This document shows, in pieces, positions 1 through 23,100 of a stretch of DNA of 32,038 nt. This stretch comes from Candidatus Deferrimicrobium sp. (GTDB taxonomy: Bacteria; Acidobacteriota; Aminicenantia; UBA2199). The notes beneath the pieces were generated by a model. It was not told where the DNA came from, searched no databases, and saw only the letters and a program-made list of their open reading frames with translations. How positions within the stretch are numbered: the first letter of the stretch is position 1; the number at the start of each line of letters is the position of its first letter. The position numbers and the translations under genes were made by a program. The stretch is from positions 1-32,038 of the forward strand of contig DATGXF010001204.1 in NCBI GenBank assembly GCA_035299165.1. The letters are read 5' to 3'.

Positions 1-3000
1 TATTTACCTATTGACCCGGAGTTTCCACAGGAACGTATCGATTATATGTTGAAAGACAGCGGGGCTAAATTGTTGGCTGTCGCCAACGGTCAAGATAGTG
101 AGAAGTTGGGGAAGTGGGAAGGTGAAAAAATTCTTTTAGAAGATATCTTCAAATCTCCAAAAAGATATTCATACTTTCTTGCTCACTTACCTTCTTATCA
201 TTTAAATTCCTCAAATATCGCCTATATCATCTACACTTCAGGTTCTACGGGAAGGCCCAAAGGTGTTTTGGTAGAGCACCGTTCTGTAGTGAATTTGATT
301 TGTCACCAGGATAAATATTTTAATATAAACCGGTCGGATCGAATATTACAATTTTCCTCTATTTGTTTTGATGCTTCTGTAGAACAAATGTTTATTGCTT
401 TTTCCAGTGGTGCGATTTTGATATTACCCGATAAGAATACTCTGCTGGATTTCAATAAATTTGATAAATTTATAATTCGTCACCGGGTTAGTCATATTCA
501 TGCCGTACCCTCATTTATAAATAATATTCAATTGATTAATTCTTCTCAATTAAAGCGCGTGATTAGCGGTGGTGATGTTTGCCCTGAATCTTTAGCTAAA
601 AAATGGAACATCAGTTTCAATTTTTATAATGAGTATGGACCCACAGAAACGACAGTTACTTCAATTGAAATATTGATAAAAAATGCAAATGCGTTTTTAT
701 TTCGAATACCGATAGGAAAACCAATCAATAATACTGTTGTATATATTCTGGATCAGTGGCTTAATCCTGCACCACTGGGAGTAATTGGCGAATTGTATAT
801 CGGGGGATCCGGAGTCGCTAGAGGATACTTGAATTGTCCGGAATTAACCGCGGAGAAATTTGGAAAGCAGATAACGCAGATAACGCAGATGACGATTATG
901 AAAAACTACAAAACCGGTGATTTGGCACGGTGGATATCCGGTGGCAATATTGAATTCATGGGCAGGATTGATCACCAGGTCAAGATTCGGGGCTATCGCA
1001 TCGAATTGGGAGAAATCGAAAACCGCCTCTTACAAAAACAGGAAATCACGGCTGCCGTGGTAGTGGTAAAAGAAAACAAAAAAACAGAAAAATACCTGTG
1101 TGCTTATATCGTTTCCCATGAAGAAATTCCCCCCACTCAGTTGACCGATCATTTAGCCGCCGCCTTGCCTACCTATATGATACCTGCCTATTTTGTACGT
1201 CTGGAAAAGCTACCTCTTACGGTCCAGGGAAAAATAGACCACAAAACCCTAGAAATGATGCCTGACAGTGAGTCCATCGTCGGAGGCGAATACAGTCCAC
1301 CGGATAGCGATATCGAACACTTACTGGTGAAAATCTGGGAGCAAGTAATGGGACACATGCCTATCGGTGTTAATGACAATTTTTTTACCAGCGGCGGTGA
1401 TTCCATCAAAGCCATACAAATATCGGCACGGATGAACAGGAAAGGATATAAAATAGGAGTAAGAGACATTTTCCAGAATCCCACCATCGCCCGTTTGGCT
1501 CCTTTCATAAAAAAAATAGAGCATATCATAGTCCAAACACCTGTAAGCGGTGCTGTTCCCTTAACCCCAATCCAGGTGGAATTTTTTCAAAACCATAAAA
1601 GCGAACCTCATCATTATAACCAGGCTTTCATGTTTTATTCAAAGGAAAATCTTGATGAGCCAATCATAAAAGCTATATTCTTCAAATTGCAAGAACACCA
1701 TGATGCGTTGCGTATGGTCTATAATTATGAAAAACAAGAAGAAGTCAGCCAGGAGAATCTCGACATCGGCTTAAATCCGGATATCTGGGTATATGATCTA
1801 CGAAAGCGAAAAGATGCAGCAGCAGTGCTAATGAAAGAAGCAAACAAAATCCAGGCCGGCATCAATTTAAAAACCGGGCCATTAATGAAAATAGGACTAT
1901 TTCATTTAGATGATGGGGAGCGATTGTTGATCGTTATTCATCACCTGGTGGTAGACGGCATTTCCTGGCGAATTCTTTTCGAAGATATCGATATATTATA
2001 CCGGCAATGTAAAAAAAGAGAACCGATGATTCTACCGCCCCGAACCGATTCATTTAAAACCTGGGCGGAACGATTAATCCAGTATGCGGGGACCCCATTG
2101 TTTTTAAAAGAAAAAACTTACTGGACCACTTTGGAATCGCAAATAATAACTTCTATACCCAAAGATTTTGCCCAAGAAAACAATTCAAAAAAAGATGAAG
2201 AAAAACTTTCTTTCAACCTGGGAGAAAATGAAACCAATCTTCTGTTAACCCGTGCTCATGAAGCTTTCGGCACAGAAATTAACGATTTGTTGTTGACTGC
2301 CCTGGGTATGGCAATAAAACAAATGTTTGGCGTTGAAAAAATCGCCGTTGCACTTGAAGGACACGGTCGCGAGGAAATTTTCGCTGATGTCGATATAAAA
2401 CGGACAGTCGGTTGGTTCACTATCGTATATCCCATAATACTCGATTTTTCTCACCGCTTTCCGGGGCAAGACTTGGGCCGACAAATAAAGGAAATCAAAG
2501 AACATTTGCATCATGTTCCGAACAAAGGTATCGGTTACGGTATTATAAAATATTTATCAGTTTCTGGTCATAAAAAAGATATTCATTTTACCTTAAAACC
2601 TCAAATTATCTTTAATTACCTGGGGCAATTCGATTCCAATACTCGAGAAATGTCATTCCGCATAGCCGCTGAATCGCCAGGACATATGACCAGCAGCTTC
2701 ACACCCAGGGAATTCGAATTAGATGTAGAGAGTATAATTGCCGAAAAGCGTTTGTTTATGACGATCTTCTACAGCAAAAAACAATATCGAAAAGAAACCA
2801 TTCAAAATTTAATGAATCATTACCGGGAAACTTTAACTCATATTATTACTTATTGCTGCAGCCGGGAAAGGAGTGAATTAACCCCTTCTGATTTTAGTTA
2901 CTCAAGTTTAACTATTGAGCAAGTCGAGCTATTAGAACATAAATATAGCCCCTATTTAATCGAGGATATTTATACCTTATCTCCTCTGCAAGAAGGAATG

Positions 3001-5106: not shown

Positions 5107-8100
5107 TCGATATATTATCTGAAGTCGAGAAAAGACAATTGCTAATCGTTTTTAACGACACTGCGGCGCAATATCCGGATAAAGGGATTAGTGATTTATT
5201 TGCCGGTCAGGTCGAAAAAACTCCCCATTATACGGCCCTTATATATGAAAATGCGAGCTTGACATACAGGGCATTGGATAGCAGGGCCAACCTCATGGCT
5301 GCATATTTTAAAAGCAAAGGAATTACTGTCGATAACATAGTTGCTGTGCTGCTGGAGCGATCATTAGAGATGATAACCTCTATATTAGCAATATTAAAAT
5401 CCGCTGGGGCTTACATGCCTATCGATCCCGAATATCCCCGGGAAAGAATTGATTATATGCTAAAAGACAGTGGAGCTAAACTGCTGGTTACCGTTGGCAA
5501 TCAAGAAATTGAGAAGCTGAGAAGGTGGGAAGGTGAGAAAAATTTTGAAATTGTTTTTTTTAATTCGTTTTTTTACTCTTCTTTATCAACTTCTGATCTT
5601 CCTAACTTCCTAACTTCCCATACTTTCAATCTCGCCTACGTCATCTATACCTCCGGTACTACAGGGAAACCCAAAGGTTCCCTGATTACTCATAAGAATG
5701 TGGTTCGCCTTTTATTTAACGATAGGTCCCGGTTTGATTTTAATCACCGGGATATATGGGCCATGTTTCACTCCTATTGTTTTGATTTTTCCGTTTGGGA
5801 AATGTATGGCGCGCTGTTTTATGGGGGCAAATTGGTTGTAGTACCCAGGATAGTGACCCGGGATCCTGCGCAATACCTTGAACTTCTTAAAAATAGGGGA
5901 GTTACAATTCTAAATCAAACTCCGACTGCCTTTTATAACCTGATAGAAGAAGAGTTGAAGCATCTTGATCACTCATTGAACTTGAAGTATATAATCTTTG
6001 GCGGAGAGGCCCTGAATCCTTTTCGATTGGCAAAATGGCACAAAAAATACCCGACCACTAAATTGATTAACATGTTCGGTATCACTGAAACCACCGTACA
6101 TGTGACTTATAAAGAAATCAGTGACCGCGAAATTGGGTTAGGTGTTAGTAATATTGGTTCTCCCATCCCAACCCTGAGTACTTATATCATGGATAGTTAT
6201 TTATCTCTCATGCCCATCGGGGCAGTCGGCGAATTATGCGTCGCTGGGGATGGAATCGCCAGGGGATATTTGAATCGACCGGAAATGACCGCGGAAAAAT
6301 TCATTGAAAATCCTTATAAATCTGGCGAAAAAATGTATCGCTCCGGTGATCTGGCCCGGTTATTAAATAATGGTGAAATGGAATATATCGGGCGACTCGA
6401 TCAACAGATCAAAATCAGGGGGTTCCGAGTGGAACTTGGAGAGATCCAAAACCGGCTGCTCCAACATGATAGTGTAAAAGAAGCAATCGTCACAATACGA
6501 GAAGATGAGGATGGAGAAAAATCCCTTTATGCCTATATCGTGTTCCATCAACCTTTTGAAATATCCAAATTGAGAGCTTTCCTGGCTATCACACTGCCCG
6601 ATTATATGATCCCCGGTTATTTCATTCCGCTTGAGCGAATCCCCTTAACCGCCAATGGTAAAGTGGATATTAAAGCCCTGCCCCACGCTGTGGCTAGAGG
6701 TTCGGTTTACCTTTCCCCCCGGAACACAATCGAAGAAACACTGGCCGCTATATGGGTTCATGAATTAAACCTTGAACGGGTCGGTATCGATGAAAATTAT
6801 TTTAATATCGGCGGTGATTCCATAAAAGCTATTCGCTTATTAAACACCGTTAACCAGTCATTTAACACCGATCTGAAAATCGTAGATATATTTACCCATG
6901 AAACCATTGAAAAATTAGCCCAACGCATCACACGGGAGAAGCCGGGACAATCTACAGACAGCCAGAGTCAAGAGGTTAAAAAAGAAATAGAGGTATTGAA
7001 AACCCGGGCAATGGAAAAACTTCCGCTTCTTTTAGCAGAAGATATCGAAGATATTTATCCCATGAGCGATATCGAAAAAGGTATGATATATTATACTTTA
7101 AAAGATCCCGGGGATGGGGCTTATCATGACCAGATAGTTTACCAGGTACCTTACCGTGATTTTAATCCATTAACTTTTACGCGCGCCCTCCAATTAATGA
7201 CGGAAAAGCATCCTATCTTAAGAACTTCTTTTCAGATGGAAAATTATGAAGAACCGCTTCAATTGGTCCATAAATCGGTATGCATAGACATGGAGCACCA
7301 GGACATATCCTCTATGGACCCGGCTCTGCAAGAAGATTTTTTAATAAATTATTTAATAGCAGACAGGAAAAAGGGATTTGTGGTAAGTGAAGCCCCGTTA
7401 TGGAGAATAAGAACTTTTCAGATTGATTCAAAACAAATTTGCATCTTACTGGTAACGCATCATGCAATATTGGACGGCTGGAGTGTAGCCGCTTTTTCCA
7501 CTGAATTAAACAATATTTACCGGCATTTAAAAAATAATCCCCATCTTACCTTACACAAATTGCACAGTACATACAAAGATTTTATCATAGATCAATTGGT
7601 GGAAATGAGAACGAACCGGGTCCAGGATTACTGGAAAGATCAACTGGACGGATATCAGCGGATGGATTTTATCAAGAAAAACCGCGGTGATACTTTCACC
7701 AGTGCGCGTATGTATTCCTTTGAGCCGGAGCAAGGCCTGGCGGTGAAACTGGAAAATTGCGCGTGGCAATACGGTTCCACGGTAAAGCATTTATGCCTGG
7801 CCGCATATATATATATGTTGAATATGTTTTCATATGAAAATGATATCACCGCAGGTATTGTGGTCATGGGGAGACCGGTGTGCGAGGATGGTGACAAAAT
7901 ATTAGGTTGCTTTTTAAATACAATCCCTTTTCGGTTAAAAATACCCGACCATTTTACATGGGCAGACTATATCCGGGAGGTGGAACGAAAACAAACCGAA
8001 CAAGCCAATTACAGTAGGACATCGTTGTTTGAAATATCGCGAATAATTGGAGAAACCCCACAAAGTAACAATCCAATCTTCGATACCATATATAATTTTA

Positions 8101-11100
8101 TCGATTTTCATATTTATGAATCAGTGGAATATGACGAAAAAACCGACGCTGGGGCCGTTAATCGTAACCGGCAGCGTCTATCGATTTCCGGCTATGTGAA
8201 AACAAATACCTTGTTGGATTTCCATGTAGATTTTACGTTGGGAAGATTCGTCGTAACAATTAATTATACAAATTCCACATTTACAGGGGATGAGATAAAG
8301 ACATTGGCTTATTATTTCGAACAGGTTTTAAAAACCATTATTACCAGGCCCATTGAAGTCATAAGCAAAGATGAAATTATATCTCCAGGGGAAAGAGAAA
8401 AATTGTTATACAAGTTTAACCAGACAGAAGCGGATTATCCCAACTCAACAACCCTACAGGAGTTATTCCATAAGCAGGTAGAGCGCACCCCTTACCGAGT
8501 GTCCCTGCTGGGAGGCGAAAACAACACGCGCAGAAAGCAGCAAATAACTTATAATGTATTGAATGAAATATCCGGGCGATTGGCGCATGTATTAAGAACG
8601 AAAGGAGTTAAGGAAGACCGGGTGGTAGGAATCATGGTGGAACGGTCTATCGAATTTATTACCGGCGTTTTCGGAATATTAAAAGCGGGCGGCGCGTATT
8701 TACCAATGGATCCGGTGCACCCGGCAGCACGGAACAGGTATATGCTTCAAGATAGCAGGGCGGAGCTTCTATTAACTACAAAAAAAACAGCAGCAAAAAT
8801 AGCGTTTGACAGGCAAATGATCTATATTGACGATCTAAATATTACTCCTGGATTTTTCCCTGACCCGGTAGAATCTTCTGCAACGGGGGCAGGCAGCATC
8901 GCATATATTATTTATACTTCCGGTTCTACCGGGAAGCCGAAGGGAGTTCTTATCGAGCATAAAGCAATAGTTAACCGGCTTCATTGGATGCAACAACGAT
9001 ATCCAATCGATGGGGGGGATACGTTGTTGCAAAAGACACCTTTTACATTTGACGTGTCGGTTTGGGAGATATTCTGGTGGTCCCTGGTGGGGGGGCGGTT
9101 ATGTATGTTGGTGCCGGGAGGCGAAAAGGACCCTGGCGTTATTATCGAAGTGGTTCAAAAAAATCGGGTTACGGTAATACATTTTGTACCTTCCATGTTA
9201 GCTGTACTTTTGGATTTTCTGAGCGAAAGTGGCGACGCTTATAAATTGTCTTGTTTAAAACAGGTAATCACAAGTGGAGAAGCTTTGACCCTTGCCCATG
9301 TGAGTCATTTCAATGCAGTATTAGGACAGCGGTATAATATAAAATTGGCTAATTTTTATGGACCCACCGAGGCAACGGTAGATGTTACCTTTTTCGATTG
9401 TCCTCTTGGAGAGGCGATGGACATAGTGCCCATCGGCAAACCAATCGATAATATTTTCTTATATATCCTAGATAAGCATGGCCAACTTCAGCCTCCCGGT
9501 GCGTCGGGAGAGTTATGCATTACCGGGACCGGTTTGGCCAGAGGGTATATAAATAATCCTGGCTTGACTAATGAAAAATTCAAAACAGTTCAACAATGGA
9601 ATGGATTAAACAAAAATTTTTCAGGGGGTCCAGGGGGGCGGTTTTTTAAAAAAGCCCCCCTGGCACTTTACAAAACCGGTGATCTAGCGCGTTGGCTGCC
9701 GGACGGTAACATCGAATTCCTGGGTCGGATTGACCGGCAGATAAAAATACGTGGCAACCGTATCGAATTGGGGGAGATCGAGAATCGGTTATTAGAATAC
9801 CCACAGGTAAAAGAAGCCGCAGTTGAAGCAAATTTATGCGCTTATTTTGTGCCCCAGGTTGGCGCCGACATTTCCATTAGCCAGCTAAGAGAATATTTGC
9901 AGCAGCATTTACCGGGATATATGGTTCCTTTACATTATGTCAGACTAGAGGCGATGCCATTGACTCCCAGTGGGAAGATCGACAGGAAATCGTTACCGGC
10001 CCCAGAAATAATTACAGATCAATCATATCTAGACCCCCAGGATGAGATAGAAAAAAAATTGACAGGAATCTGGGCGGAAGTATTAAATATAACCAAACCA
10101 ATAAGTAGCATCGCCAATTTTTTCGAATCCGGGGGACATTCTTTAAATGCTGTGGCGTTAATTTCACGAATACATAAAGCTTTCGATGTAAAGATAACTC
10201 TCGAGTCGTTATTTAAAAACCCCACCATCCAGAAAATCGCGGCACATTTAAAGGCAGCACAACCTGATAAATTTTTAGTGATCCCGGCAGTAGAAAAAAA
10301 AGAATTTTATCCGCTGTCATCCGCTCAGGAGCGGTTGTATTTCCTCCAGCAAATGATAGGAGCAGAAACGGTTTACAATATCCCGCTTGTCATGCTGCTG
10401 CATGGTCCAATAGATAGGGCGGCGTTGGAACGGGCCTTCAATCGCTTGATCCAGCGTCATGAAAGTTTTAGAACATCTTTCCATGTAGTGAGTGGTGAGA
10501 TTGTGCAAAAAGTCCATGACAATGTGAAATTTGAAATCGAAATATTAGCGGACAAGGGGCAGCAGGAAGAACTAAATGCTTTGGTCCGGCCCTTTGAACT
10601 ATCGAAAGCGCCATTGTTGAGGGTAGGATTGATAAAAAAAACCACCGAAGAATATATCCTGGCGCTGGATATGCATCATATCATAGTGGATGGAGTATCT
10701 TTTACTGTACTGGTAAGGGATTTTATGCAGTTATATGAGAAGAATGAATTGCCGCCAATGAGAGTGCAGTATAAAGATTTTGTCCAATGGATGCGGATGG
10801 ATTTACAGGAAGAAATGATCCGGCGGCAGGAAACCTACTGGGTGAAGGAGTTTGCGGGAGATGTCCCGGTATTATCGCTTCCTACCGATTATTTGCGGCC
10901 GGCTATCCAGAATTTTGAAGGGAGTTCGTTAGGATTTGTGATAGATGCAGAAATTGCCGGGTTATTGGAGAAGTATGCCCTGGAGCAAGAAACAACAGTA
11001 TATACTGTACTGTTATCCTTATATTATATTCTCCTGGCCAAACTCGCCAGCCAGGAAGATATTGTTATAGGAATCCCGGTGGCCGGGAGAAACCATGCTG

Positions 11101-14100
11101 ACCTGGAAAATATCATTGGTATGTTTGTCAACACCCTGGCGCTCAGGAATTATCCCAATGGCAACAAAAGTGTTAAACGATTTTTAGCAGAAGTTAAAGA
11201 AAACCTCCTGGCTGGTTTAGGGAACCAGGATTATCCAATTGAAGATTTGATCGAAAAAGTATACACCAGCCGGGATACAAGTCGTAATCCTTTGTTTAGT
11301 ACGGTATTCGTCATGCAAAATGTGGACATGGCAAACAGACCGAAGGTGGAGAATCCAGGCCTGAGAATAAGTCCCTACAATTATGAGAACAAAACTGCTA
11401 AATTCGATTTAACACTACGGATAGTCGAAACAGGGAAGCGAATTGCTTGTGAATTCGAATACTGTACCCGGTTATTCGTCCAAAGTACGGTGAAACATTT
11501 CGTAGATTATTTTATTAATGCAGCTAATGCGCTTCGCCAGGGGATAGATATATCGATAGCTGACCTGGATATCCTCCCGGAGACGGAAAAACAACGATTG
11601 TTGTATGATTTCAATGAAACAGCAGCGGAATATCCGCGGGACAAAACCATCCATGGATTATTTACAGAGCAAGTAGAACAAACTCCAGATCTAATCGCGG
11701 TTGTTGGTTCAACTGTAGAGACGCCTCTACAAATAACTTATCGCCAATTGAATGAGCAATCCAACCGATTGGCCTATGTGTTACAAACAAGAGGAATAGA
11801 ACTCGATACCATTGTTGGAATTATGATGGAACGCTCAATTGAGATGGTGGCTGGGATGATAGGCATATTAAAATCCGGGAGTGCATATTTACCTATTGAT
11901 CCCGAATATCCTGGGGAACGAATCAAATATATGTTGAAAGATAGTGGCGTAAAACTATTGGTTATGACTAACCATAAAGAAAGTGAGAAAATCGGGCAGT
12001 GGGAAGGTGAGAAAAATCTCGAAATAGTCTTTTTTGATTCTCTTTCCTTCTCTTCTTCTCTCTTAACTTCTTATCTTCCTAACTTCCCAACTTCCCATTC
12101 GTTCAATCTTGCTTATGTCATTTATACCTCCGGTACCACGGGCCAACCGAAAGGGTCACTCATTGAACATCGAAATGTTGTCCGCCTACTGTTTAACGAT
12201 AAATTCCAATTCGATTTTACAGACTACGATGTATGGACACTGTTTCATTCCCTTTGTTTCGATTTTTCCGTGTGGGAGATGTATGGTGCATTGCTGTATG
12301 GAGGGAAATTGGTTATAGTGCCCAAAATGGTAGCTATGGACACAATCGGGTTCTTAGAACTTTTAAATAGAGAAGCTGTTACCGTATTAAACCAGACCCC
12401 TTCGGCTTTTTATAACTTGATAAATGAAGCGTTAAGCCCCTACCGGGAAGGGAAAAAATTATATATAAAATATGTCATTTTTGGTGGGGAAGCCTTAAAT
12501 ACGTTAAAATTGAGAGATTGGCTGGCAAAGTATCCCCAAACCAGTCTTATCAATATGTTCGGTATTACGGAAACCACCGTGCATGTGACCTATAAAGAAT
12601 TAAACCAAAAAGATGTTGAATTAAGCATCAGCAACGTTGGTAAACCAATCCCGACGTTGAAGGTTTACATATTGGATAAGTATTTAAAACAGGTTCCTGT
12701 AGGGGGTGAAGGAGAGATATATGTAGGCGGAGATGGCGTTGCCAGGGGATATTTGAATCGACCTGAATTAACATCAAATAAGTTTATCAATATTCATCAT
12801 TCATCATTCGATATTCCACGCATTCATGATCCAAAGTTATACCGTACCGGTGACCTGGCCAGGTATCTTAGCAATGGCGATATGGAGTACCTGGGTCGCA
12901 TCGATCAACAGGTAAAAATCCGGGGATTTCGAATTGAATTAGGAGAGATTGAAAATCGCTTAACAAAAATTGCCGGGATAAAAGAGGCCGTTGTCATCGA
13001 TCGAGAAGATGAACCCGGCGATAAATATTTATGTGCTTATATCGTCTCAAAAAAGGCAGTGATTGTCACAGAAATAAGAGAATATCTGACCGGGAATTTA
13101 CCGGATTATATGATACCGAGTCATTTCCTGCAAATCGATAAAATCCCCATAACTGCAAATGGGAAAATAGACCGGAAAGCATTGCCCAAACCGGGATTGA
13201 AGTTAAGTGACAGTTATATTGCGCCTCAAAGTGCACTAGAAAAGCAATTGGCCAGACTATGGGCCGATGTATTAGGAATAGAAGACAATATCGGCAGCGA
13301 TGATAACTTTTTTGAATTAGGTGGGCATTCATTAAGAGCGACGGTGTTAATTGCCAGGATGCACAAAGAATTCCATGTTAAAGTGCCGTTAGTTGAAATA
13401 TTCAGAATACCCCGGCTCAAGGAATTAGCGGTATATATCAAAGGAAAAAAGAAAGAAATCTATAACGCGATAGAACCTTGCGAAGCGAAAGAATATTACG
13501 CCCTTTCCCCAGCGCAGAAACGGTTATACATCCTACAGCAATTGGTGCCGGGTAATACCGGTTACAATATGCCTAATGTTATTCCTCTGGCTGGATATGT
13601 TGAAAAAGAGAAATTAGAATCCGTGTTTAAAGAATTAATAAAAAGACATGAAAGCTTAAGAACCTGTTTTATAAAAGTAAATGATGAACCGGTCCAGAGA
13701 ATAAATAAAGAGGTTGAATTTTCGATTGCTTGTATGAAAAGCCAGGCACCCGGTCGTCCTGATTTTGTCGGAACATTTGATTTAAGCCAGGCGCCTCTTT
13801 TACGGGTAAAACTTTTAACCGTTGATGCAACCAGTCAAATGCTTTTGATCGATATGCACCACATTATCACCGATGGAGTGTCCCAGGGTATATTGGAAAA
13901 AGAATTCATGATGTTATATGCCGGTGAAACATTGCCGACTTTGCGGCTCCAATATAAAGATTACTCCGAGTGGCAAAATAGTCGGCAGCAAAAGTTATTA
14001 ATAAAAGAACAAGAAACATATTGGTTGGAGTTATTTGCTGGAGATATCCCGGTGCTTAATCTAGCCATCGATTATCCACGTCCCATCATGCAGAGTTTCG

Positions 14101-17100
14101 AGGGAGCCAATGTACGATTCGTATTAACGGCAAACGAAAGCCGTGTTTTAAAAGAAGCGGCAGTTCAAACCGGTGCCACTTTGTATATGAGTATTTTATC
14201 CGTTTTTACCATATTACTTTCCCGGCTGAGCGGGCAGGAAGACATTATTGTCGGCGCCGCCATTGCCGCCAGAAGACATGCGGATTTAGAAAAAATCATC
14301 GGTATGTTTGTCAATACCCTGGCCATGAGAAACAATCCTGTTAGGGAAAAAAGTTATCGAGAATTTTTACTCGATCTTAAAGAACAAACATTAAAGGCTT
14401 ATGAGAACCAGGAATACCCTTTCGAAGAGTTGGTGGATAATATAACAGTAAGTAGGGATACCGGGCGTAACCCAGTGTTTGACGCCATGTTTAATTTATT
14501 GAATATCCAAGATTACAATGATAGAATCATCAACACCGGAACCGAAGAATATCAATCGACCCACCAGGAAGGAAACGCAAAATTCGATTTGACCTTAATA
14601 GGTGTTGACCTGGGCGAAAGGTTTCTCTTTGATATCGAATATTGTACCCGGTTATTTAAGCCCGAAACAATCGACCGGTTCATTTCTTATTTTAAGAAAC
14701 TCCTGGATTCAATCTCCCAGGATATCGATAAAAAATTATGTGCATTGGATATCATAACCGAAGAAGAGAGGAACCGGGTTTTATATGAGTGGAACGATAC
14801 CAGAGTTGATTATCCGAAAGATAAAACCATCCATCAACTTTTTGAGGAACAAGTGGATGTGACACCGGATCACATTGCCGTTATCGGTTCCTGGGAAAGA
14901 GAAAAGGAGAATAGTGGTGTAGAGAATTTATCCGTAGCGTCTCTACATATTACATATTTACAATTAAACGAACAATCCAATCGATTGGCTTATGGGTTAC
15001 AAACAAAAAGAGTCGGACCCGATACTATTGTGGCAATTATGGCGGAACGGTCCGTTGAAATGATCATTGAAATACTTGGTATTTTAAAGGCAGGAGGCGC
15101 CTATTTGCCAATTGACCCGGAATATCCACAGGAAAGAATTGATTACATGTTGAAAGACAGTGGAGCCAAATTAATGAAAAGAAGGCACGCGCGTGCGTGC
15201 GCGGAAGAGTTCCTCGCTTCCTCGCTTCCTCGCTTTCTCGCTTCTGCTTCTTCAAATCTCGCTTACATTATATACACTTCGGGTTCTACGGGCAAACCCA
15301 AAGGCGTTATGGTTGAACATCATTCGGTAATAAACTTAATCCAAACAAGGGCTTACCGGTTTAAAACAGGTACCCCGGGACGGTTGTTATTAGCTACTTC
15401 GATTTGTTTCGATGCCTCGGTAGAGCAAATATTTGCCGCCTTATTTTTCGGAAATGTATGCGTTGTGGCAGCCAAAGAAACGCTGTTGGGAAAGGAACTG
15501 CTTAATGGGTTTCTTAAGCAGCATGCTGTGACATATTTAACTGTTGTACCTTCTATCCTGGCTTTAATTTCGGAAGATAACAATACTTTAAAAGGAATCA
15601 CGGTGGGTGGTGAACCTTGCCCGGTTTCGTTGGCCCGGCAATGGAGTAAACGTTGTATTTTTTATAATGAATATGGACCTACTGAGACGACAGTAACAGT
15701 ATTGGAGAAAAAAATCATTGCCGATGAGGAAAATACCTGGTGCTTGCCCCTGGGCAAACCTATTCCCAATATTCGTATTTTTATCCTGGATGCCGCCTTG
15801 AAGATTGTTCCCATGATGGTTAACGGTGAGTTGTTTATTGAAGGGGCAGGTGTTACCCGCGGCTATTTAAACAACCCGGAATTAACCAGGGGCTCTTTTA
15901 CTAATATCCTGAGGAAGTGTGCAGAAAAAACAAGCATTTGGGACATAGTCTTCAAGGAAGAAAGGCCCCAGGGCCGTGCAAAGGAGCTTGGGGCGCCGCC
16001 CCATTTTGAAAAAACACCCACTGGAATGGACCCTGTAAAACGTTTGTTTAATTACCACTCACCTCTCACTGCGCGCCACTCACCGTTCGTCACTCACCAA
16101 TCACCCATCTATAAAACCGGAGATTTAGCCCGCTGGTTGCCGGATGGCAATATTGAGTTCCTGGGAAGGATCGATCAACAGGTGAAAATCCGGGGATTTC
16201 GAATCGAATTAGGAGAGATTGAGAATTGCTTAGCAAAAATTGTCGGAATAAAAGAGGCTGTTGTCATTGATCGAGAAGATGAAACCGGCGATAAATATTT
16301 ATGTGCTTATATTGTTTTCACAAAAGAATATGAGATAACCGAATTACATCGGTACTTAGCAAAAGAGTTACCCGCTCATATGGTTCCCGCCTATTTTGTG
16401 CCGGTTGAGAAAATACCGCAGACTACGAACGGAAAAATCGATCGCAAATCGCTGCCTGAACCCAAAACAATGAGTCTAAAAGAAAATATTGCGCATACTG
16501 TTCCAACTACTGCCGTAGAGAAAAAATTGGTAAAAATTTGGCAGCGCGTATTGGGTAGAGACAATATTGGTATCGATGAAAATTTCTTTATGATCGGGGG
16601 CGATTCTATAAAATCCATCCAGATCATTTCCAGGATGAACAGCGAAGGATATCGGCTCGAGATGAAAGATATTTTCCAACACCCGGTAATATCTGAATTA
16701 GCTCCACTGGTAAAAAAATTAGAACGGGTACCGGATCAAAATGCCATTACCGGGACCATACTGTTAACTCCTATCCAACAAGTATTTTTTAGTAAAGATT
16801 ATACGGTTCCACATCATTTTAACCAGTCCGTCATGTTTTATTCCCGGGAAAGATTCGATGCTGATGCACTCAAGGAAGTATTTGCTAAGATCCAGGAACA
16901 CCATGATGCCTTACGTATGACCTATCGCTTCGACGTAGATGACGAAGATAAAGAAAATAAGAAAATCATTCAAACCAATCATAGCTTAGACTACCCGCTT
17001 TGTTTCGATGAATATGATTTAAAAAATCAACCCAATAGTTTAGAAGAACTCAATATTAAAGTGAACCAGATTCAAGCCGGCATTGACCTTGAAAAAGGAC

Positions 17101-20100
17101 CATTGATGAAATTAGGATTATTTCATCTTGATAGCGGCGATCGGTTGTTGGTTGTCATTCATCACCTGGTCATCGACGGCATTTCCTGGCGCATTTTGTT
17201 TCAAGATATTGAGACTTTATATAACCAGTATCGGCAGGGTAAAACTTTTGCCTTACCACACAAAACGGATTCCTTTAAACTTTGGTCGGAAAAGCTGTAT
17301 TTATATGCTAATGGTCAACCGTTTTTAAAAGAGAAGGACTACTGGGGTCAATTGGAAGCCAATATCGTACCTGGAATTCCCCAAGATTTCGAGGAAAAAG
17401 AGAATAATGCCGATGATACGGCGAATATTCGCAGTTTATCATTTAGACTTGAAGAAGAAGAAACCAATTTACTGCTGACCAGGGTGAATCATGCTTTCGG
17501 TACTGAAATTAATGATATATTGCTAACGGCATTGGGATTAGGAATGAAGAAAACCTTTGGGCAGGATAAAGTATTATTAGCGCTTGAAGGGCATGGCAGA
17601 GAAGAGATATTGGCAGAAACCGGTATCGATATCAGTAGAACCGTCGGTTGGTTTACCAGCATATACCCGGTATCAATGGATATGTCTTATTCAGGGGACC
17701 TGGGCCGGCAAATTAAGGAGATAAAAGAAAAATTAAGACGAATTCCCAATAAAGGTGTCGGCTATGGAATATTGAAATACCTCACCGATGAAAAAAATAA
17801 AAAAGAGATTGAATTTAAATTAAAACCCCAGATCAGTTTCAATTACCTGGGGCAATTTGATGCCGATGTAAAACAAATGTCCTCTTTTGAAATGGCCAAG
17901 GAATCTCCAGGAAATCCCATAAGTACTAAAAATAAAAGGGAATATGAATTCGATATAAACGGCATGATATCTTATAATCGCCTGGTAATAGGGGTGTCCT
18001 ACAATCATACCCATTTCAAAGCGGAAACCATGGCATCATTAACCGGTAATCTCCAATCTGAACTTCGTCGCATCATTTCTTATTGTTCTGTGCAGGAGAA
18101 AAGAGAATTTACTCCCAGTGATTTTACTTACAAAAGTTTATCGATAGATTATCTTAACCGGTTAATGCAATTGTACACCGATGTCGAAGATATATATCCA
18201 TTAACACCTATGCAAGAAGGGATGTTGTTCCATGCCCTGGTTGACGAAAAATCTCATTCCTATTTCGAACAAATGTCTTACCGGTTAGAAGGAAAATTGG
18301 ATATCCATCTCACTGAAAAAAGTTTAAATGAGTTGTTTAAACGTCACGAAATATTAAGAACGGCATTTATTTATGAAGAGGTTGAGCGTCCGCTGCAGGT
18401 AGTTTTATCCAAACGGGCCATCGATTTTTATTATGAAGATATCAGGAGCATTGACGATAAAAAAGAAAAAGAATTTTTTGTCGCTGAATTTAAAGAAAAA
18501 GATAAAAGACGTTCGTTCGTTTTAAGTAAAAGTGCGTTGATGCGCGTTTCGATTCTCCAGTTAGCGGATTCAGAGTACGAATTCATCTGGAGTTTTCATC
18601 ATATCTTAATGGATGGATGGTGTATCGGGATATTAAACAGCGAATTTTTCGAAATTTATTCTTCGTATTTAGGGAATAGGCCCTATCGTTTGCCGGATTT
18701 AAAACCCTACCGGACCTATATCCAGTGGCTGGAAAAACAAAATAAAGAAGCATCGCTCAGCTATTGGGAAAATTACCTGGATTCTTATGAAGAACAAGTA
18801 AGTATGCCCAGGACAAATATCATAAAAAACGAACCTGGGAAACTGGGCGAAATAAATCGACGAGTTTCGTTTTTATTAGACAGAGATAAGACGGTGGGAT
18901 TAAATAAATTGGCCGCGGTAAACAATGTTACGCTGAATGTTGTGACCCAGGTGCTGTGGGGAATTATCCTGGGTAAATATAACGGTAAAGAGGATGTGGT
19001 ATTCGGAGCTGTTGTTTCCGGTCGTACTTCCGAATTGGATGGGATAGAATCCATGGTGGGCTTATTTATTAATACCATCCCGGTGAGAATCCAATTTAAT
19101 GAACATATGAATTTTAATTATTTGTTGCAAAAAATCCAGCAAGAAGCCTTAACTGGTGAACCTTATCATTACAATCCATTGGCTGAAATTCAATCCATAA
19201 GTTCATTAAAACAAAATTTACTCGATCATATTTTTATATTTGAAAATTACCCCATTGCAGAACGAATCGAAGGTTACGGAAAAGAAGAAAATAAAAGTGG
19301 CAAGTCACTATCAGTGCGCCTTTTAGATGTAGAAATTTTTGAGCAAACAAATTATGATTTTAATGTTTTATTGGGAGGCTCAGATCAATTAAGTATTATA
19401 TTTCAATATAATGCTAATGTGTATGAGAGGAGTTTTGTGGAACGGATTGGCCAACATTTCAGTCTTGCCGTTGACCAGGTAATTAAAAATGGGGGATTAG
19501 AGATAAAGAAACTAAACCTTCTTACCGAGGAAGAGAAGAGCTTATTACTATACCGGTTTAACAATACAGCGGTGGAATATCCCAAAGATAAATCTATCCA
19601 TCTCTTGTTTCAAGAACAGGCTGAACAAATTCCGGATAGTATTGCTCTCATTGGTCCATTATTATCGATAGAAGAAAACGGTTTAACGTCTTTAAACACA
19701 AATGCTGCCAATATGTTAATCCAGCAATCATATAATGAATTGAATAAACAATCCATTCGATTGGCTCATATGTTACAAACAAAAGGAGTTGGACCCGATA
19801 CTATTGTGGCAATTATGATGGAACGGTCTGTTGAAATGATTATCGGCATACTGGGTATATTGGCGGCAGGGGGCGCCTATTTACCCATTGATCCGGAATA
19901 TCCGCAAGCACGTATCGATTATATGTTGAAAGACAGCGGAGCCAAATTAATGATAGGAAGGGGAGAAGAACGGAAGAGCAGAAGAGCGGAAAGAAATTTT
20001 ATATATATTTCTTTTTCTTCAAACCATGCTTCCTCAAATCTCGATTCCTCGCTTCCTCGCTTCCATAATTCCGATTCTTCAAACTCCGCTTACGTCATCT

Positions 20101-23100
20101 ACACATCCGGTTCTACCGGCAAGCCCAAAGGGGTGATGGTGGGACACCGGAATATCATGAATTTTAACCAGGGAATCATTTCTAACATCCCATTTTCTCC
20201 GGGCAAAGCTATCCTGGCATTGACCACAATATCCTTTGATATATTTGTATTAGAAACTTTTCTACCGCTGTTAAATGGTCTTAAAGTAGTTATTGCCAAT
20301 GAGGAACAGCAAAAAGACCCCAGCTTGCTGGGAGAGACCATCGTTAAGCACTGTTTGGATATGCTCCAGGTAACTCCTTCCACCCTGCATATGTTAATTA
20401 GCCATAATGGAGAATTACATTGCTTACAAGGATTAAAGGAATTAATGGTAGGGGGGGAAGCGTTCCCTGATCATTTGTTTACCAGGGTAAAAGAGGCATT
20501 TAAAGGCAATATATATAATATGTATGGACCCACCGAGACTACAGTGTGGTCGGCATTAAAAAACCTTACCTTAGAAGAAACAGTAAATATTGGCACTCCC
20601 ATTGCCAATACCCAGATATTTATAGTGGATCGCTGCAACCGGTTACTACCGATAGGAGCATCCGGTGAGTTGTGCATTGGTGGAGATGGGGTAGCCCGGG
20701 GATATTTAAATCGTCCTGAATTAACCTCAGAAAAATTTTGCCGGCATTTATGGGTTGAGCGCCCCCGCCGGGGGCTTCAGCATTCAAAATTATATAGAAC
20801 CGGCGATCTGGCCCGTTGTCTCCTGGATGGAAATATCCAGTTTTTAGGTAGAATTGACCAGCAAGTGAAGGTTAGGGGATTTCGCATCGAATTGGGAGAG
20901 ATTGAAAGTCGATTACTTGAGTGCGAAGGTATTAAAGAGGCCGTTGTGGTTATAAAAGAAGGTGACGGCGCAGATAAATACATATGTGCTTATATTGTTT
21001 CCCATCCAGGAAATGTTTTAAGTGATATGAAATTAAGGGAAGAACTGGCCGCAAAATTGCCTTATTACATGATCCCATCCTATATCATACAATTGGAACG
21101 TATCCCTTTGACGCCCAACGGGAAAATCGACAGGAATGCGCTGCCTGCGCCGGCCATGGGAGAAGGCGAAGCCGGCACAGCCCCTCGAAATGATATGGAA
21201 AAGAAATTGGCGGGAATTTGGTCTGAGGTATTGGGAATGGCTAAAGAAAAACCAGGCATCGATCATAATTTTTTCCAGATAGGCGGCCATTCATTAAAAG
21301 CTGTGATAATGATATCCCGCATTCATAAAGTATTTAATGTGATCATATCCCTGGTAGATTTTTTCCAAAGGCCCACCATCAGGCAGTTGTCCGAATATAT
21401 TAAAAAAGCGGAATCGGATCGATTTTTCTCTATTGAGCCGGCAGAAAAAAAAGAATATTATCCTCTTTCATCAAGCCAAAAGAGGCTCCTTTTTCTTCAG
21501 CAATTGGAAGAATTCAATGTAGCTTACAATATGACGGCAGTATTGGAATGGCACGGGGTATTGAACAGGGAGGGGGTGGAAAGTACTTTCCAGCGATTGA
21601 TCGCACGCCATGAGAGTTTTAGAACTTCTTTTCATACGCATAATGGGCAGGCTGTGCAGCAGATACATCCCCAGGTGAAATTTGAAATCGAATATAACCA
21701 TGAAGCAGATATTGATACAGGTACAAAAAATTTTATAAAGCCTTTTGATTTGGGGCAGGCGCCACTGCTTAAAGTCCGTTTATCTGAAATTTCGCCGGGG
21801 CGGCATTTACTTATGGTGGATATGCATCATATTATCTCGGACGGGGTTTCTGTCCAATTGGCGATGCGGGATTTTATGCGACTTTATGGGGGGGAGGATT
21901 TGCCACCCCTGGGATTTCAATACAAAGATTATTCTCAATGGCAAAATGAACCGCAGCAAAAAGAAATATTAAAAAAACAACGGGGGTATTGGAGCGAAGA
22001 ATTTGCCGGGGATGTCCCCGTTCTTTCGCTGCCCCTGGATTATCCTCGCCCGTTGCTGCAGAGTTTTGATGGGGAAACCGTACATTTTGAATTAAACACT
22101 GAAGAAACTCGCGGATTACGGGCGACTGCCAAAAAAATACAGGGCACATTATATATGGTTCTGCTGGCCCTTTATACTGTTTTTCTTGCCAAAATGACCG
22201 GTCAGGAAGATATCGTAGTTGGAACGCCGGTAGCGGGTCGCAGGCATAAAGACCTGGAAGAGATCATCGGGAATTTTGTGAACACACTGGCATTAAGAAA
22301 CCGCCTCGAAGGGGGGATGACCTTCAAGGACCTACTGGACAAAGTGAAAGTAAATTTATTACAGGCCTTTGAGAACCAGGAGCATCCTTATGAAGATTTA
22401 ATTGAAGAAGTAGGTGTCAAAAGGGATACTAGCCGCAATCCACTGTTCGACGCGGCATTGGCCCTTCATAATGTGGATATGCCGGGTGAAATTTCCTGGG
22501 CTTCCAGCGGGAATATCAAGATAAAACCTGTGTCTATACCAGGGAAAACCTCTAAATTCGATTTGACATTGCAGGTCATCGAGGGTCAAGAAAAAATTGA
22601 TCTGGAATTTGAATATTGCAACAAACTCTTCATGCCTTCAACTATCCGGCGCTTTGTCGAATATTTTAAAGGAATCCTAAAAGAGGTACTGCCGGAGCCG
22701 GCAATCCGATTGAGAGAAATTTCCATTATTTCTCCGCAAGAAAAGCAGCAACTGTTAGCCGCTTTCAATCATACGCAGAGCCAATACCCTGAGTATCAGA
22801 CAATCGATCGGTTATTTGGAGAACAAGCGGTCCGGACGCCGGATGCTATTTCCGTCGCATATAACGATAATACAATCACATACAGAGAATTGGAATGCAG
22901 GGCCGGCCAGGTAACCGATTACCTCGGGAACAAGTGCGGCCTTAAGGCTGGCGAACTTGCGGCAATCCTGGCAAACCGCTCTGAAAATACCATCATCGGT
23001 ATGCTGGGGATATTGAAAGCGGGAGGGGCTTATTTACCTATCGATCCTGATTATCCGCAGGAAAGGATCGATTATATATTGCAGGACAGCGGAGCTAAAT

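What the first reader, a model, noticed from the sequence alone, without database searches (positions are those of the whole stretch)
5511..5621. In-frame but 8-nt-periodic purine/pyrimidine inverted arrays between motifs A2 and A3 of six A domains
Between ...MLKDSGAKL (A2 side) and LAYxIYTSG (A3) the DNA has an 8-nt period, not a codon period. In module 1 the purine array is GAGAAGCT|GAGAAGGT|GGGAAGGT|GAGAAAAA (5511-5542). About 55 nt later comes CTTCCTAA|CTTCCTAA|CTTCCCAT (5598-5621). The reverse complement of that unit (GGGAAGTT) matches the purine unit (GGGAAGGT) at 7 of 8 positions. The same layout occurs at 100-131 / ~174-212, 11985-12016 / 12075-12098, 19956-19995 / 20046-20077 and 23122-23161 / ~23195-23245. 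In module 4 the left arm is partly replaced by CACGCGCGTGCGTGCGCG and the right arm is TCCTCGCT x4 (15211-15242). Three units equal eight codons, so the arrays stay in frame and read as EKLxxWEGEK and LPNF(L/P)TSH or LPRFLASA. The two A domains with a different N-terminal third (module 2 and NRPS-3 A1) lack them. An 8-nt period is hard to explain by protein-level selection, so a nucleic-acid-level origin or role is implied. Candidates are an mRNA stem between purine (AAGG/GGTGA, Shine-Dalgarno-like) and pyrimidine (CTTCC/CCTCG) arms that affects ribosome pausing, a recombination signal on the 5' side of the specificity pocket, or a domesticated small palindromic element. Beyond the GGAAG/CTTCC cores the arm complementarity is imperfect, so hairpin strength is uncertain.
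Basis: seen in the sequence. Interest (0 to 1): 0.62.

Follow-up and report, generated by a model that had tools for sequence, protein, structure and literature searches.

The report
Repeat DNA translated inside NRPS loops
Short 8-base DNA repeats that normally sit between genes in some uncultured soil and sediment bacteria are lodged, in frame and apparently translated, in a tolerant surface loop of six adenylation domains of a peptide synthetase, showing how repeat DNA can be absorbed into large biosynthetic genes and might help reshuffle them.

Summary
Strong 8-nt periodicity occurs only in the A2-A3 segments of six of the eight A domains. It exceeds what the encoded peptides require. The origin is at the DNA level. 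The same units (TTCCTCGC, GGAAGAGC, GGTGAGAA, CTTCCTAA, and the heptamer TTCATCA) form dispersed arrays in non-NRPS, mostly intergenic DNA of Aminicenantes MAGs and of many metagenome contigs. There they often occur as purine/pyrimidine inverted pairs that fold into -55 to -78 kcal/mol hairpins. Homologous A domains in those MAGs carry arrays at the same spot, with several unit families and copy numbers.

In the window the arrays have been made translatable. The conserved Trp (TGG) of EKLxxWEGEK sits where a perfect array would give TGA. The third CTTCCTAA unit departs from the consensus where TAA would be in frame. Units with no stop in any of the six frames stay nearly perfect although the flanks are saturated.

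The coding copies fold no better than synonymous controls, so a selected mRNA stem is not supported. SD-likeness is unexceptional. No copy-number change was seen across metagenomes.

The arrays lie on a lower-confidence surface helix and coil, near a junction between independently assorting A-domain parts. A recombination role is possible but unproven. I found no published description.

The parts
100..131 (+). A0 purine arm, a degenerate (GAGAAGGT)n array read as EKLGKWEGEK
   Evidence: Reverting G117 to the unit consensus A would create an in-frame TGA.
178..200 (+). A0 pyrimidine-rich stretch (CTTGCTCACTTACCTTCTTATCA), a decayed right arm with no clear period
   Evidence: It pairs with the left arm in the MFE structure. 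TRF does not call it.
5511..5542 (+). A1 purine arm, GAGAAGCT GAGAAGGT GGGAAGGT GAGAAAAA, read as EKLRRWEGEK. It is the reverse complement of the intergenic TTCTCACC unit family.
   Evidence: It maps to helix 104-114 of the AF2 model.
5543..5597 (+). A1 spacer between the arms. It encodes NFEIVFFNSFFYSSLSTSD, including the retained beta strand EIVF.
   Evidence: strand 120-123.
5598..5621 (+). A1 pyrimidine arm, CTTCCTAA CTTCCTAA CTTCCCAT, read as LPNFLTSH
   Evidence: A perfect third unit would give an in-frame TAA. It lies in coil 130-147 of the model.
11985..12016 (+). A3 purine arm (EKIGQWEGEK), more degenerate than in A1
   Evidence: G12002 to A would give TGA.
12047..12098 (+). A3 pyrimidine arm, ending CTTCCTAA CTTCCCAA CTTCCCAT
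15186..15209 (+). A4 alternating GC-rich tract CACGCGCGTGCGTGCGCG plus GCGGAAGAG, a one-unit remnant of the (GGAAGAGC)n left arm
   Evidence: Homologues carry (GGAAGAGC)x4.5 here.
15210..15244 (+). A4 pyrimidine arm, (TTCCTCGC)x4.4 with 1 mismatch, read as FLASSLPRFLAS
19956..19995 (+). A5 purine arm, a (GGAAGAGC)-type array read as GRGEERKSRRAER
20040..20064 (+). A5 pyrimidine arm, CTCGA TTCCTCGC TTCCTCGC TTCC
23122..23162 (+). A6 purine arm, (GAAGGTGA)n with 70% matches, read as GEKVKSWEGEKV
23195..23245 (+). A6 pyrimidine-rich stretch with no detectable 8-nt period (a decayed right arm, or not one at all)

Best explanation
The arrays are in-frame, translated copies of a DNA-level class of short tandem repeats with 7-8 nt units. 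In Aminicenantes/Acidobacteriota MAGs and in many environmental bacteria this class is dispersed through non-coding DNA. There it often forms a purine array, a spacer and the inverted pyrimidine array, which together make a long hairpin.

Shown here:
1. The same unit families occur in intergenic mosaics and at the A2-A3 spot of homologous A domains in other genomes.
2. Periodicity exceeds what the peptide requires.
3. The coding copies bear marks of selection for translatability. TGA has become TGG, giving the conserved Trp. TAA is avoided in the third CTTCCTAA unit.
4. A length difference between homologues is 24 nt, which is three units.
5. Units that are stop-free in all six frames stay nearly perfect while flanking third codon positions are saturated.
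6. The arms map to a lower-confidence surface helix and a coil.

Inferred:
1. The repeats entered or arose in this permissive segment, the site where nature also inserts whole methyltransferase domains.
2. They spread with module duplication and A-domain recombination.
3. They are kept homogeneous by slippage or gene conversion within each arm.
4. They need no function of their own in the synthetase. Their hairpin potential has largely decayed.
5. As a side effect, the 24-36 nt tracts shared between paralogues may serve as microhomology at a recombination junction.
For: - Local, non-codon periodicity.
- A genome-collection scan for TTCCTCGCTTCCTCGCTTCC gave at least 118 loci (about 1 expected for a random 20-mer in 596 Gb). 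Twenty come from one Aminicenantes MAG, four from a second, and two from an Acidobacteriota MAG.
- Of those 26 loci, seven have the array at the same A2-A3 spot of A domains about 70% identical to window A4/A5. One has it before motif A8. The other eighteen are non-NRPS and mostly between ORFs, in mosaics with TTCCGCTC, TTCTCACC and TTCATCA arrays, beside ordinary genes.
- A metagenome scan for CTTCCTAACTTCCTAACTTCC gave at least 120 contigs, none beside an A3 motif. Of 80 with both flanks, 16 have an inverted purine array upstream (median gap 34 nt) and 0 have one downstream.
- Intergenic pairs fold to -0.40 to -0.50 kcal/mol/nt (z = -4 to -10). NRPS copies fold to -0.21 to -0.36 (z about -1).
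- Among 10 homologues, the 150-nt flanks are 68% and 45% identical (third positions 48% and 31%). The arms are 30-38 nt with 0-2 mismatches to perfect arrays, including left arms that were not used for retrieval. L029 differs from its relatives by exactly 24 nt.
- Stop-codon footprints and the open/closed status of each unit in six frames.
- AF2 model (pLDDT 88): left arm = helix 104-114, right arm = coil 130-147, pLDDT about 70-80 against more than 90 around.
- a2-a3 is a natural insertion site of interrupted A domains (PMC11355689).
- Other repeats sit in the A7-A8 loops of the same genes. An in-frame purine array occurs in a BACON/Ig protein of the MAG.
Against: - The source genome of the window is not available. 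That its own intergenic DNA carries these arrays is inferred from related MAGs only. NRPS genes move horizontally.
- Retrieval by an exact 20-mer biases right-arm purity upward.
- The central beta strand between the arms looks ancestral. A single insertion of a ready-made inverted element is therefore not the simplest history, and the arms may have arisen separately in situ.
- An inverted same-family arrangement recurs with at least four unit families at this one site: GGAAGAGC/TTCCTCGC, GGTGAGAA/CTTCCTAA, AAATYCG/CGRATTT and TTGTYAA/TTRACAA. Pure passenger status does not fully explain that.
- No mechanism of spread of the arrays is known.
Confidence: 0.7

Rival explanations
1. The arrays are selected as recombination junctions. 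Identical 24-36 nt tracts shared by many A domains, just 5' of the specificity-conferring part, promote homologous or microhomology-mediated exchange of A-domain parts and so diversify the peptide.
For: - The A4/A5 block of 84% identity (14962-15185 vs 19738-19961) ends exactly at the 5' edge of the array segment. Identity is 36-50% beyond A3.
- Among 16-17 A domains, pairwise relatedness upstream and downstream of the segment is uncorrelated (r = 0.04; Spearman U1-D1 0.06). Within each side it is correlated (U2-U1 0.55, D2-D3 0.52).
- A second conversion block (12874-13055 vs 16144-16326, 89%) starts just after the repeat-bearing A7-A8 loop.
- Natural exchange units often start near A3 (PMC8097286).
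Against: - Acore recombination is common in NRPSs that have no arrays (PMC8097286).
- Resolution is poor. D1-D2 is also decoupled (0.16), and D1 is hypervariable, so the junction cannot be placed on the arrays.
- The A1-A2 region is simply more conserved than what follows.
- The array-less A2x is related to L036:1161 downstream (60%) just as mosaically.
Confidence: 0.15
2. The two arms form an mRNA stem, and/or the SD-like purine arm pauses ribosomes, timing co-translational folding of the A-domain N-terminal subdomain.
For: - MFE structures do pair the purine arm with downstream pyrimidine-rich sequence. A0 and A3 fold better than mononucleotide shuffles (z = -3.6 and -2.65).
- Same-family inverted pairs recur at this site with several unit families.
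- Purine arms bind a generic anti-SD tail at -11.4 kcal/mol, in the top ~1% of positions.
Against: - Against synonymous-codon controls, z is only -1.5 to +0.1 in all six segments.
- Coding copies fold far worse than intergenic ones.
- The perfectly complementary unit TTCCGCTC exists in the same genomes, yet all 10 homologues use TTCCTCGC, which pairs at 6 of 8.
- L066 and L029 combine arms of different period or family. L097:731 and L008 have one arm only. L059 and window A4 lack the spacer.
- About 25 other sites in the window bind the anti-SD as well or better.
Confidence: 0.1
3. The arrays are contingency (phase-variation) tracts. Gain or loss of one 8-nt unit shifts the frame and switches the synthetase off and on.
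For: The unit length is not a multiple of three. The tracts lie inside a 7202-aa ORF, so slippage by one unit would truncate the protein (sequence).
Against: - Contigs from runs of three studies show no gaps at the A4 and A5 arrays, only substitutions.
- The tracts are short, 2.6-4.5 units.
- Every one of more than 20 A-domain instances examined is in frame.
- Six switches in one gene cluster would rarely all be 'on'.
- Caveat: Logan contigs cannot show minority variants.
Confidence: 0.03
4. Protein-level selection alone explains the arrays: a low-complexity linker peptide (EKLxxWEGEK ... LPNFLTSH / FLASSLPRFLAS) is what is conserved, and the DNA period is incidental.
For: The peptides are similar among paralogues, and the Trp is invariant in the A0/A1/A3/A6 type.
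Against: - Synonymous resampling of the same peptides does not reproduce the lag-8 signal.
- There is no synonymous variation in 30-38 nt arms although flanking third positions are only 31-48% identical.
- Identical units occur in non-coding DNA.
- The Trp codon is the one-step repair of the unit's TGA.
Confidence: 0.02

Closest known systems
Abundant TAACTGA heptamer direct repeats of Beggiatoaceae, cyanobacteria and some Bacteroidetes (MacGregor 2015, PMC4679880), and cyanobacterial STRR heptamers (own knowledge)
   Same: Both are lineage-restricted 7-8 nt units in short tandem sets dispersed through the genome and mostly intergenic. In both, a minority lie inside ORFs in the orientation that lacks stops, usually in peripheral or tolerant protein regions. 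In both, the way they spread is unknown. The octamer TAACTTCC (= CTTCCTAA) even shares TAACT with TAACTGA.
   Different: The units differ and most are octamers. Many sets here occur as inverted purine/pyrimidine pairs that form long hairpins. The coding copies sit inside a catalytic domain, recurrently at one site of a paralogous family, and show stop-codon repair.
Rickettsia palindromic elements (RPE) inserted in frame into protein-coding genes (Ogata et al. 2000, own knowledge; mentioned in PMC1779305, PMC10969869)
   Same: Both are small palindromic repeat elements that are tolerated in frame, are translated, and lie on protein surfaces without destroying function.
   Different: RPEs are 100-150 bp sequence families with a conserved sequence. 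Here only the short unit is shared, the spacers differ, the arms are tandem arrays, and the coding copies have largely lost the hairpin.
Small dispersed repeats / mini-elements of Nostocales (Elhai et al. 2008, own knowledge)
   Same: Both are very small repeat elements of about 20-30 nt that can sit inside genes without breaking the frame.
   Different: Those are single-copy insertions of a defined sequence, not tandem arrays of a 7-8 nt unit. No NRPS-loop association has been reported.
Interrupted adenylation domains (M, KR or Ox domains inserted between a2-a3 or a8-a9; PMC11355689)
   Same: The permissive sites of the A domain are the same. The arrays sit between A2 and A3. Other repeats sit in the loop before A8, which is near but not identical to the a8-a9 site.
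   Different: No catalytic domain is inserted and the segment is not longer than usual: 45-68 aa against 59-63 aa in typical A domains. The inserted material is repeat DNA.
Simple-sequence contingency loci (phase variation by slipped-strand mispairing)
   Same: Both are tandem units whose length is not a multiple of three, inside an ORF. Slippage is the likely homogenising process.
   Different: The tracts are short, no length polymorphism was seen, all copies are in frame, and there are many tracts per gene.

Membership tests
Dispersed short tandem repeat families (STRR / TAACTGA kind) | Head-to-tail copies of a 7-8 nt unit, 2-6 or more copies per set | tested here: met
   TRF reports period-8 arrays of 2.6-5 copies. 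A heptamer TTCATCA x2.6 lies at 12792-12809.
Dispersed short tandem repeat families (STRR / TAACTGA kind) | Many sets per genome, mostly intergenic | tested here: inconclusive
   Met in related MAGs: 20 loci of one Aminicenantes MAG, most between ORFs. The window's own genome is not available and the window is almost all coding.
Dispersed short tandem repeat families (STRR / TAACTGA kind) | The specific unit of the described families (TAACTGA; CCCCAGT etc.) | tested here: not met
   The units here are TTCCTCGC, GGAAGAGC, GGTGAGAA, CTTCCTAA and TTCATCA.
In-frame palindromic repeat elements (RPE-like) | Element folds into a stable hairpin | tested here: not met
   Window copies give z = -1.5 to +0.1 against synonymous controls and -0.21 to -0.33 kcal/mol/nt, against -0.40 to -0.50 for intergenic pairs.
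In-frame palindromic repeat elements (RPE-like) | Inserted in frame in protein-coding genes, at the protein surface | tested here: met
   The 7202-aa ORF is uninterrupted. The arms map to a helix and coil of lower pLDDT in the AF2 model. There is also an in-frame array in a BACON/Ig protein.
In-frame palindromic repeat elements (RPE-like) | A conserved full-length element sequence shared by the copies | tested here: not met
   Only the 7-8 nt units are shared. Spacers differ between copies and organisms.
Phase-variable contingency locus | Repeat-number polymorphism within or between populations | tested here: inconclusive
   Contigs from runs of three studies show no gaps. Contigs hide rare variants and no raw reads were available.
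Phase-variable contingency locus | Unit length not divisible by three, inside an ORF | tested here: met
   8-nt units lie within ORF 4377-25985.
Interrupted adenylation domain | An auxiliary catalytic domain embedded between a2 and a3 (or a8 and a9) | tested here: not met
   A2-A3 segments are 45-68 aa in the window, no longer than the 59-63 aa of ordinary A domains. Pfam finds only NRPS domains in ORF1.
MITE | Terminal inverted repeats plus target-site duplication, and a related transposase | not tested
   Inverted arrays could act as arms. No target-site duplication or transposase was looked for, and spacers are not conserved.
Known structured RNA family (Rfam) | Match at gathering score to a curated covariance model | tested here: not met
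   Rfam 15 searched against the window and 11 array-bearing loci returned only one tRNA.

The most novel reading that the evidence does not exclude
The purine-spacer-pyrimidine arrays of 7-8 nt units are an undescribed, widespread class of self-propagating, hairpin-forming repeat elements of uncultured soil and sediment bacteria. In the NRPS genes of Aminicenantes-like bacteria they have been co-opted as built-in recombination junctions that let the N-terminal and specificity-conferring parts of A domains reassort.
Probability: 0.15. Interest if true: 0.8.

Novelty: new variant of a known kind. Interest (0 to 1): 0.6.

Why it matters
- It gives a concrete, checkable case of repeat DNA being absorbed into a catalytic domain. 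It leaves readable scars: a conserved tryptophan that is a repaired stop codon, and length changes in steps of three units.
- It points to a family of octamer and heptamer arrays, often inverted and strongly hairpin-forming, that is abundant in Aminicenantes MAGs and in many metagenome contigs. I found no description of it in the searched literature or in Rfam.
- For NRPS work, it marks the A2-A3 segment and the loop before A8 as places that tolerate arbitrary sequence in a whole family of natural A domains.
- It raises a testable idea: shared repeat tracts may help A-domain parts recombine.
- For annotation, it warns that such tracts create spurious ORFs and odd low-complexity peptides.

Tried and rejected
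- RNA folding against synonymous-codon controls gave no significant excess stability. The first attempt timed out.
- Affinity to a generic anti-SD tail (my assumed sequence) showed the purine arms are in the top ~1% of positions but not unusual for this window.
- The Rfam search found nothing.
- Literature searches on Aminicenantes plus tandem repeats, on octamer or 8-bp repeats, and on adenylation domain plus tandem repeat or heptanucleotide found no description.
- The protein search found only homologues of at most 58% identity and no orthologue of the window.
- A look-up of the radical SAM protein returned only 2.5-4 kb contigs, so the source organism could not be identified or its intergenic DNA inspected.
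- A crude measure of distance from arrays to gene starts and ends is unreliable. CTTCCTAA arrays carry stops in all six frames, so they define ORF ends themselves. I draw no conclusion from it. The coarser classification says only that most arrays lie between ORFs.
- A first nucleotide-level identity matrix was invalid because of degenerate end-gap-free alignments. I replaced it with protein alignments.
- Copy-number variation could be examined only on consensus contigs.
Full report
**1. What is in the window**

The + strand carries NRPS genes:
- an ORF running in from the 5' edge to 4353;
- a 7202-aa ORF at 4377-25985;
- a radical SAM gene at 25969-27705;
- a further NRPS.

There are eight A domains. 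Their A3 motifs (YTSG) lie at 232, 5646, 8913, 12123, 15273, 20100, 23262 and 29000. The finding concerns the stretch between motif A2 (...MLKDSGAKL) and A3 (LAYxIYTSG) in six of them.

Yes.
- The quoted units are present at the quoted coordinates.
- TRF calls period-8 arrays at 5510-5539, 5598-5618, 12047-12095, 15210-15244, 19965-19991, 20040-20064 and 23124-23162.
- In a scan of the whole window, lag 8 gives five clusters with at least 14 of 16 matches. All five fall inside the six segments, which make up 2.7% of the window. Other lags from 3 to 12 give none or one, none of them in the segments.
- I kept each peptide and resampled synonymous codons from the window's usage. The mean lag-8 match is in excess in all six segments (P <= 0.007; 0 of 2000 for A1, A3, A4, A5). 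It is not in excess in the two array-less A domains.
- The signal is weak in A0 and in the right arm of A6.
- The six cases fall into two array types: A0/A1/A3/A6 and A4/A5.
- Contigs of independent metagenome runs reproduce the A4 and A5 arrays without gaps, so they are not assembly artefacts.

**3. Where the units come from**

A scan of one genome per species for the 20-mer TTCCTCGCTTCCTCGCTTCC returned at least 118 loci. About one is expected for a random 20-mer. Twenty come from a single Candidatus Aminicenantes MAG, four from a second Aminicenantes MAG and two from an Acidobacteriota MAG.

In seven of those 26 loci the array sits at the same A2-A3 position of A domains whose DNA is about 70% identical to window A4/A5. 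The encoded peptide is ...IMIGRAEERKSGRAEFVFSCFFLASSLPRFLASDSSNLAY.... The left arm is (GGAAGAGC)n and the right arm is (TTCCTCGC)n.

In one further locus the array precedes motif A8. In the other eighteen it lies in non-NRPS DNA, mostly between ORFs. There it is embedded in mosaics of other tandem units on the same strand:
- TTCCGCTC, the reverse complement of the NRPS left-arm unit;
- TTCTCACC/TTCTTACC, the reverse complement of GGTGAGAA, which is the left-arm unit of window A0/A1/A3/A6;
- the heptamers TTCATCA and AAATYCG, and others.

Neighbouring genes are ordinary: a PAS histidine kinase, RACo, MotA and a trypsin-like peptidase. A BACON/Ig-domain protein carries an in-frame purine array, GEKGRAEARKSGRAEK.

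A scan of metagenome contigs for the window's other right-arm array, CTTCCTAACTTCCTAACTTCC, returned at least 120 contigs from organisms of visibly different composition. None is next to an A3 motif.

**4. An inverted-array element class**

Among 80 of those CTTCCTAA contexts with both flanks available, 16 have a purine-rich lag-8 array within 250 nt upstream (median gap 34 nt). None has one downstream. The upstream arrays read (GGAAGTNA)n, (GGAGGTNA)n and similar.

These purine-spacer-pyrimidine elements fold into long interrupted hairpins of -55 to -78 kcal/mol. That is -0.40 to -0.50 kcal/mol per nt, with z = -4 to -10 against shuffles that keep the composition of each half. Most arrays lie between ORFs. 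No Rfam family matches them, and I found no description in the searched literature.

**5. The coding copies are constrained by translation**

- A perfect (GAGAAGGT)n array contains TGA in every frame. In A0, A1 and A3 the single change that restores the unit consensus (G to A at 117, 5528 and 12002) creates an in-frame TGA. The conserved Trp of EKLxxWEGEK is therefore the TGG left by removing that stop.
- A perfect third CTTCCTAA unit would give an in-frame TAA. In A1 and A3 the third unit reads CTTCCCAT.
- TTCCTCGC and GGAAGAGC are open in all six frames, and these are the purest coding arrays. Among ten homologous A domains the 150-nt flanks are 68% and 45% identical (third positions 48% and 31%). 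The arms are 30-38 nt with 0-2 mismatches to a perfect array. This holds for the left arms too, which played no part in retrieval.
- One homologue (L029) is exactly 24 nt, three units, shorter in the left arm. Another (L059) has the two arms abutting.
- A strain variant in another metagenome differs by reciprocal changes eight bases apart (19970 A>G and 19978 G>A) with no length change. That looks like unit-level turnover.

Together these results indicate a DNA-level repeat that is continually homogenised. It is allowed to persist only in frame-preserving, stop-free form.

**6. Where the arrays sit in the protein**

An AlphaFold2 model of the A1 domain (window 5190-6830, 51-row alignment, mean pLDDT 88.3) places them as follows:
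- the purine arm on helix 104-114;
- the retained strand EIVF at 120-123;
- the pyrimidine arm in an 18-residue coil, 130-147, before the A3 strand.

Block pLDDT is 69-81 there, against more than 90 on either side. The a2-a3 interval is where natural interrupted A domains carry whole methyltransferase domains (PMC11355689). The segment is not lengthened: 45-68 aa in the window, against 59-63 aa in ordinary A domains. So repeat-derived sequence has replaced ancestral sequence rather than simply adding to it.

The loops before motif A8 in the same genes carry further small repeats and GC-rich palindromes. This fits the idea that permissive loops collect repeats better than a function specific to A2-A3.

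**7. Testing the proposed roles**

*mRNA stem.* The six segments fold no better than synonymous controls (z = -1.5 to +0.1) and far worse than intergenic pairs. The perfectly complementary unit TTCCGCTC is common in the same genomes, yet all ten homologues use TTCCTCGC, which pairs at 6 of 8. Homologues also combine (GAAGGTGA)n with (TTCATCA)n, or (TTGTYAA)n with (TTCATCA)n, or have a single arm.

*SD-like pausing.* The purine arms reach -11.4 kcal/mol against a generic anti-SD tail. About 25 other sites in the window do as well or better.

*Phase variation.* No length change was seen in consensus contigs of runs from three studies. Minority variants cannot be seen in contigs.

*Recombination.* The A4/A5 block of 84% identity ends exactly at the array's 5' edge, and identity is 36-50% beyond A3. 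Relatedness upstream and downstream of the segment is uncorrelated among 16-17 A domains, while it is correlated within each side. Natural exchange units often begin near A3 (PMC8097286). But the first 100 aa after A3 are hypervariable and are also decoupled from what follows. The junction therefore cannot be pinned to the arrays, and such recombination also occurs without arrays.

One thing remains incompletely explained. Same-family inverted pairs recur at this one site with at least four unit families.

**8. Conclusion**

The period-8 arrays are in-frame, translated copies of a dispersed, lineage-associated class of 7-8 nt tandem repeats. Elsewhere these repeats live in non-coding DNA, often as hairpin-forming inverted pairs. 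In the NRPS they occupy a permissive surface segment. They have been made translatable, have mostly lost the hairpin, and most likely need no function of their own. A role as recombination microhomology is the most interesting possibility still open.

The closest described phenomena are:
- the TAACTGA/STRR heptamer repeats (PMC4679880);
- in-frame palindromic elements of Rickettsia (own knowledge).

The units, the inverted-array architecture and the recurrent residence inside a catalytic domain differ from both. I therefore file this as a new variant of a known kind.

The main weakness is that the window's own genome could not be examined. The genome-wide habit of the repeats is inferred from related MAGs.

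Noticed in passing
window 867-894, 12792-12809, 16056-16098: The loop before motif A8 of three A domains also carries short repeats. These are (GCAGATAAC)x3 read as KQITQITQMT, the heptamer (TTCATCA)x2.6 read as IHHSSF, and three spaced CACTCACC motifs read as HSPLTARHSPFVTHQSP.
   Followed up: partly
window 9622-9663, 15964-16002, 20759-20777; L036 A2-A3 segment starting at 1161: GC-rich palindromes lie inside coding loops before A8 (for example CAGGGGGGC...GCCCCCCTG and GCCCCCGCCGGGGGC). The same GCCCCCGCCGGGGGC palindrome lies between the two heptamer arms of an A2-A3 segment in the Aminicenantes MAG. Similar palindromes occur in its intergenic mosaics.
   Followed up: partly
window 12874-13055 vs 16144-16326; 14962-15185 vs 19738-19961: There are blocks of 89% and 84% nucleotide identity between modules whose neighbouring DNA is only 40-65% identical. 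These look like gene conversion or recombination between modules. Each block abuts a repeat-bearing loop.
   Followed up: partly
window 25969-25985: The radical SAM gene (578 aa, PF04055) starts 17 nt before the stop of the 7202-aa NRPS ORF. This suggests translational coupling inside the cluster.
   Followed up: no
L089 1589-4713, L110 4212-5688, L082, L045, L113 (Aminicenantes MAG JAPKZK01): Kilobase-scale regions are packed with up to 16 arrays of 7-8 nt units, all with the same strand polarity. They are interspersed with CCACGAATTACACGAATT / CACAGATTACACAGATT motifs. Long ORFs are few there.
   Followed up: partly
L196, L228, L193, L202 (metagenome contigs): Some purine arrays are tandem perfect Shine-Dalgarno-like octamers, (GGAGGTAA/GGAGGTGA)n. 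Their partners are anti-SD-like, (TCACCTCC/CCTCCTAA)n. A link to translation initiation in the intergenic elements is conceivable.
   Followed up: no
L068 1421-1450: A non-NRPS protein with BACON and Ig domains carries an in-frame purine array (GGAAGCGAGGAAGAGCGGAAGAGCGGAAAA) read as GEKGRAEARKSGRAEK. A pyrimidine array lies 450 nt downstream, outside the ORF.
   Followed up: partly
window 19970 and 19978 (run X10): A related strain differs by A>G and G>A exactly eight bases apart in the A5 purine arm, with no length change. It is as if a variant unit had moved by one repeat.
   Followed up: no
proteins P0005, P0007, P0009, P0014, P0038, P0061, P0073: A domains from unnamed MAGs and metagenomes have odd A2-A3 peptides that decode to the same repeat families. 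FHHSSF corresponds to TTCATCA. SDFEFRISDF corresponds to (CGRATTT)n. SIVNCQLLTVN ... SINNYQLTINNLQL corresponds to (TTGTYAA)n with its inverse. Their DNA was not fetched.
   Followed up: partly
window 15162-15284 (A4) and L059 2051-2167: These A domains lack the central beta strand between the arms, giving A2-A3 segments of 44-46 aa. Whether they still adenylate is unknown.
   Followed up: no
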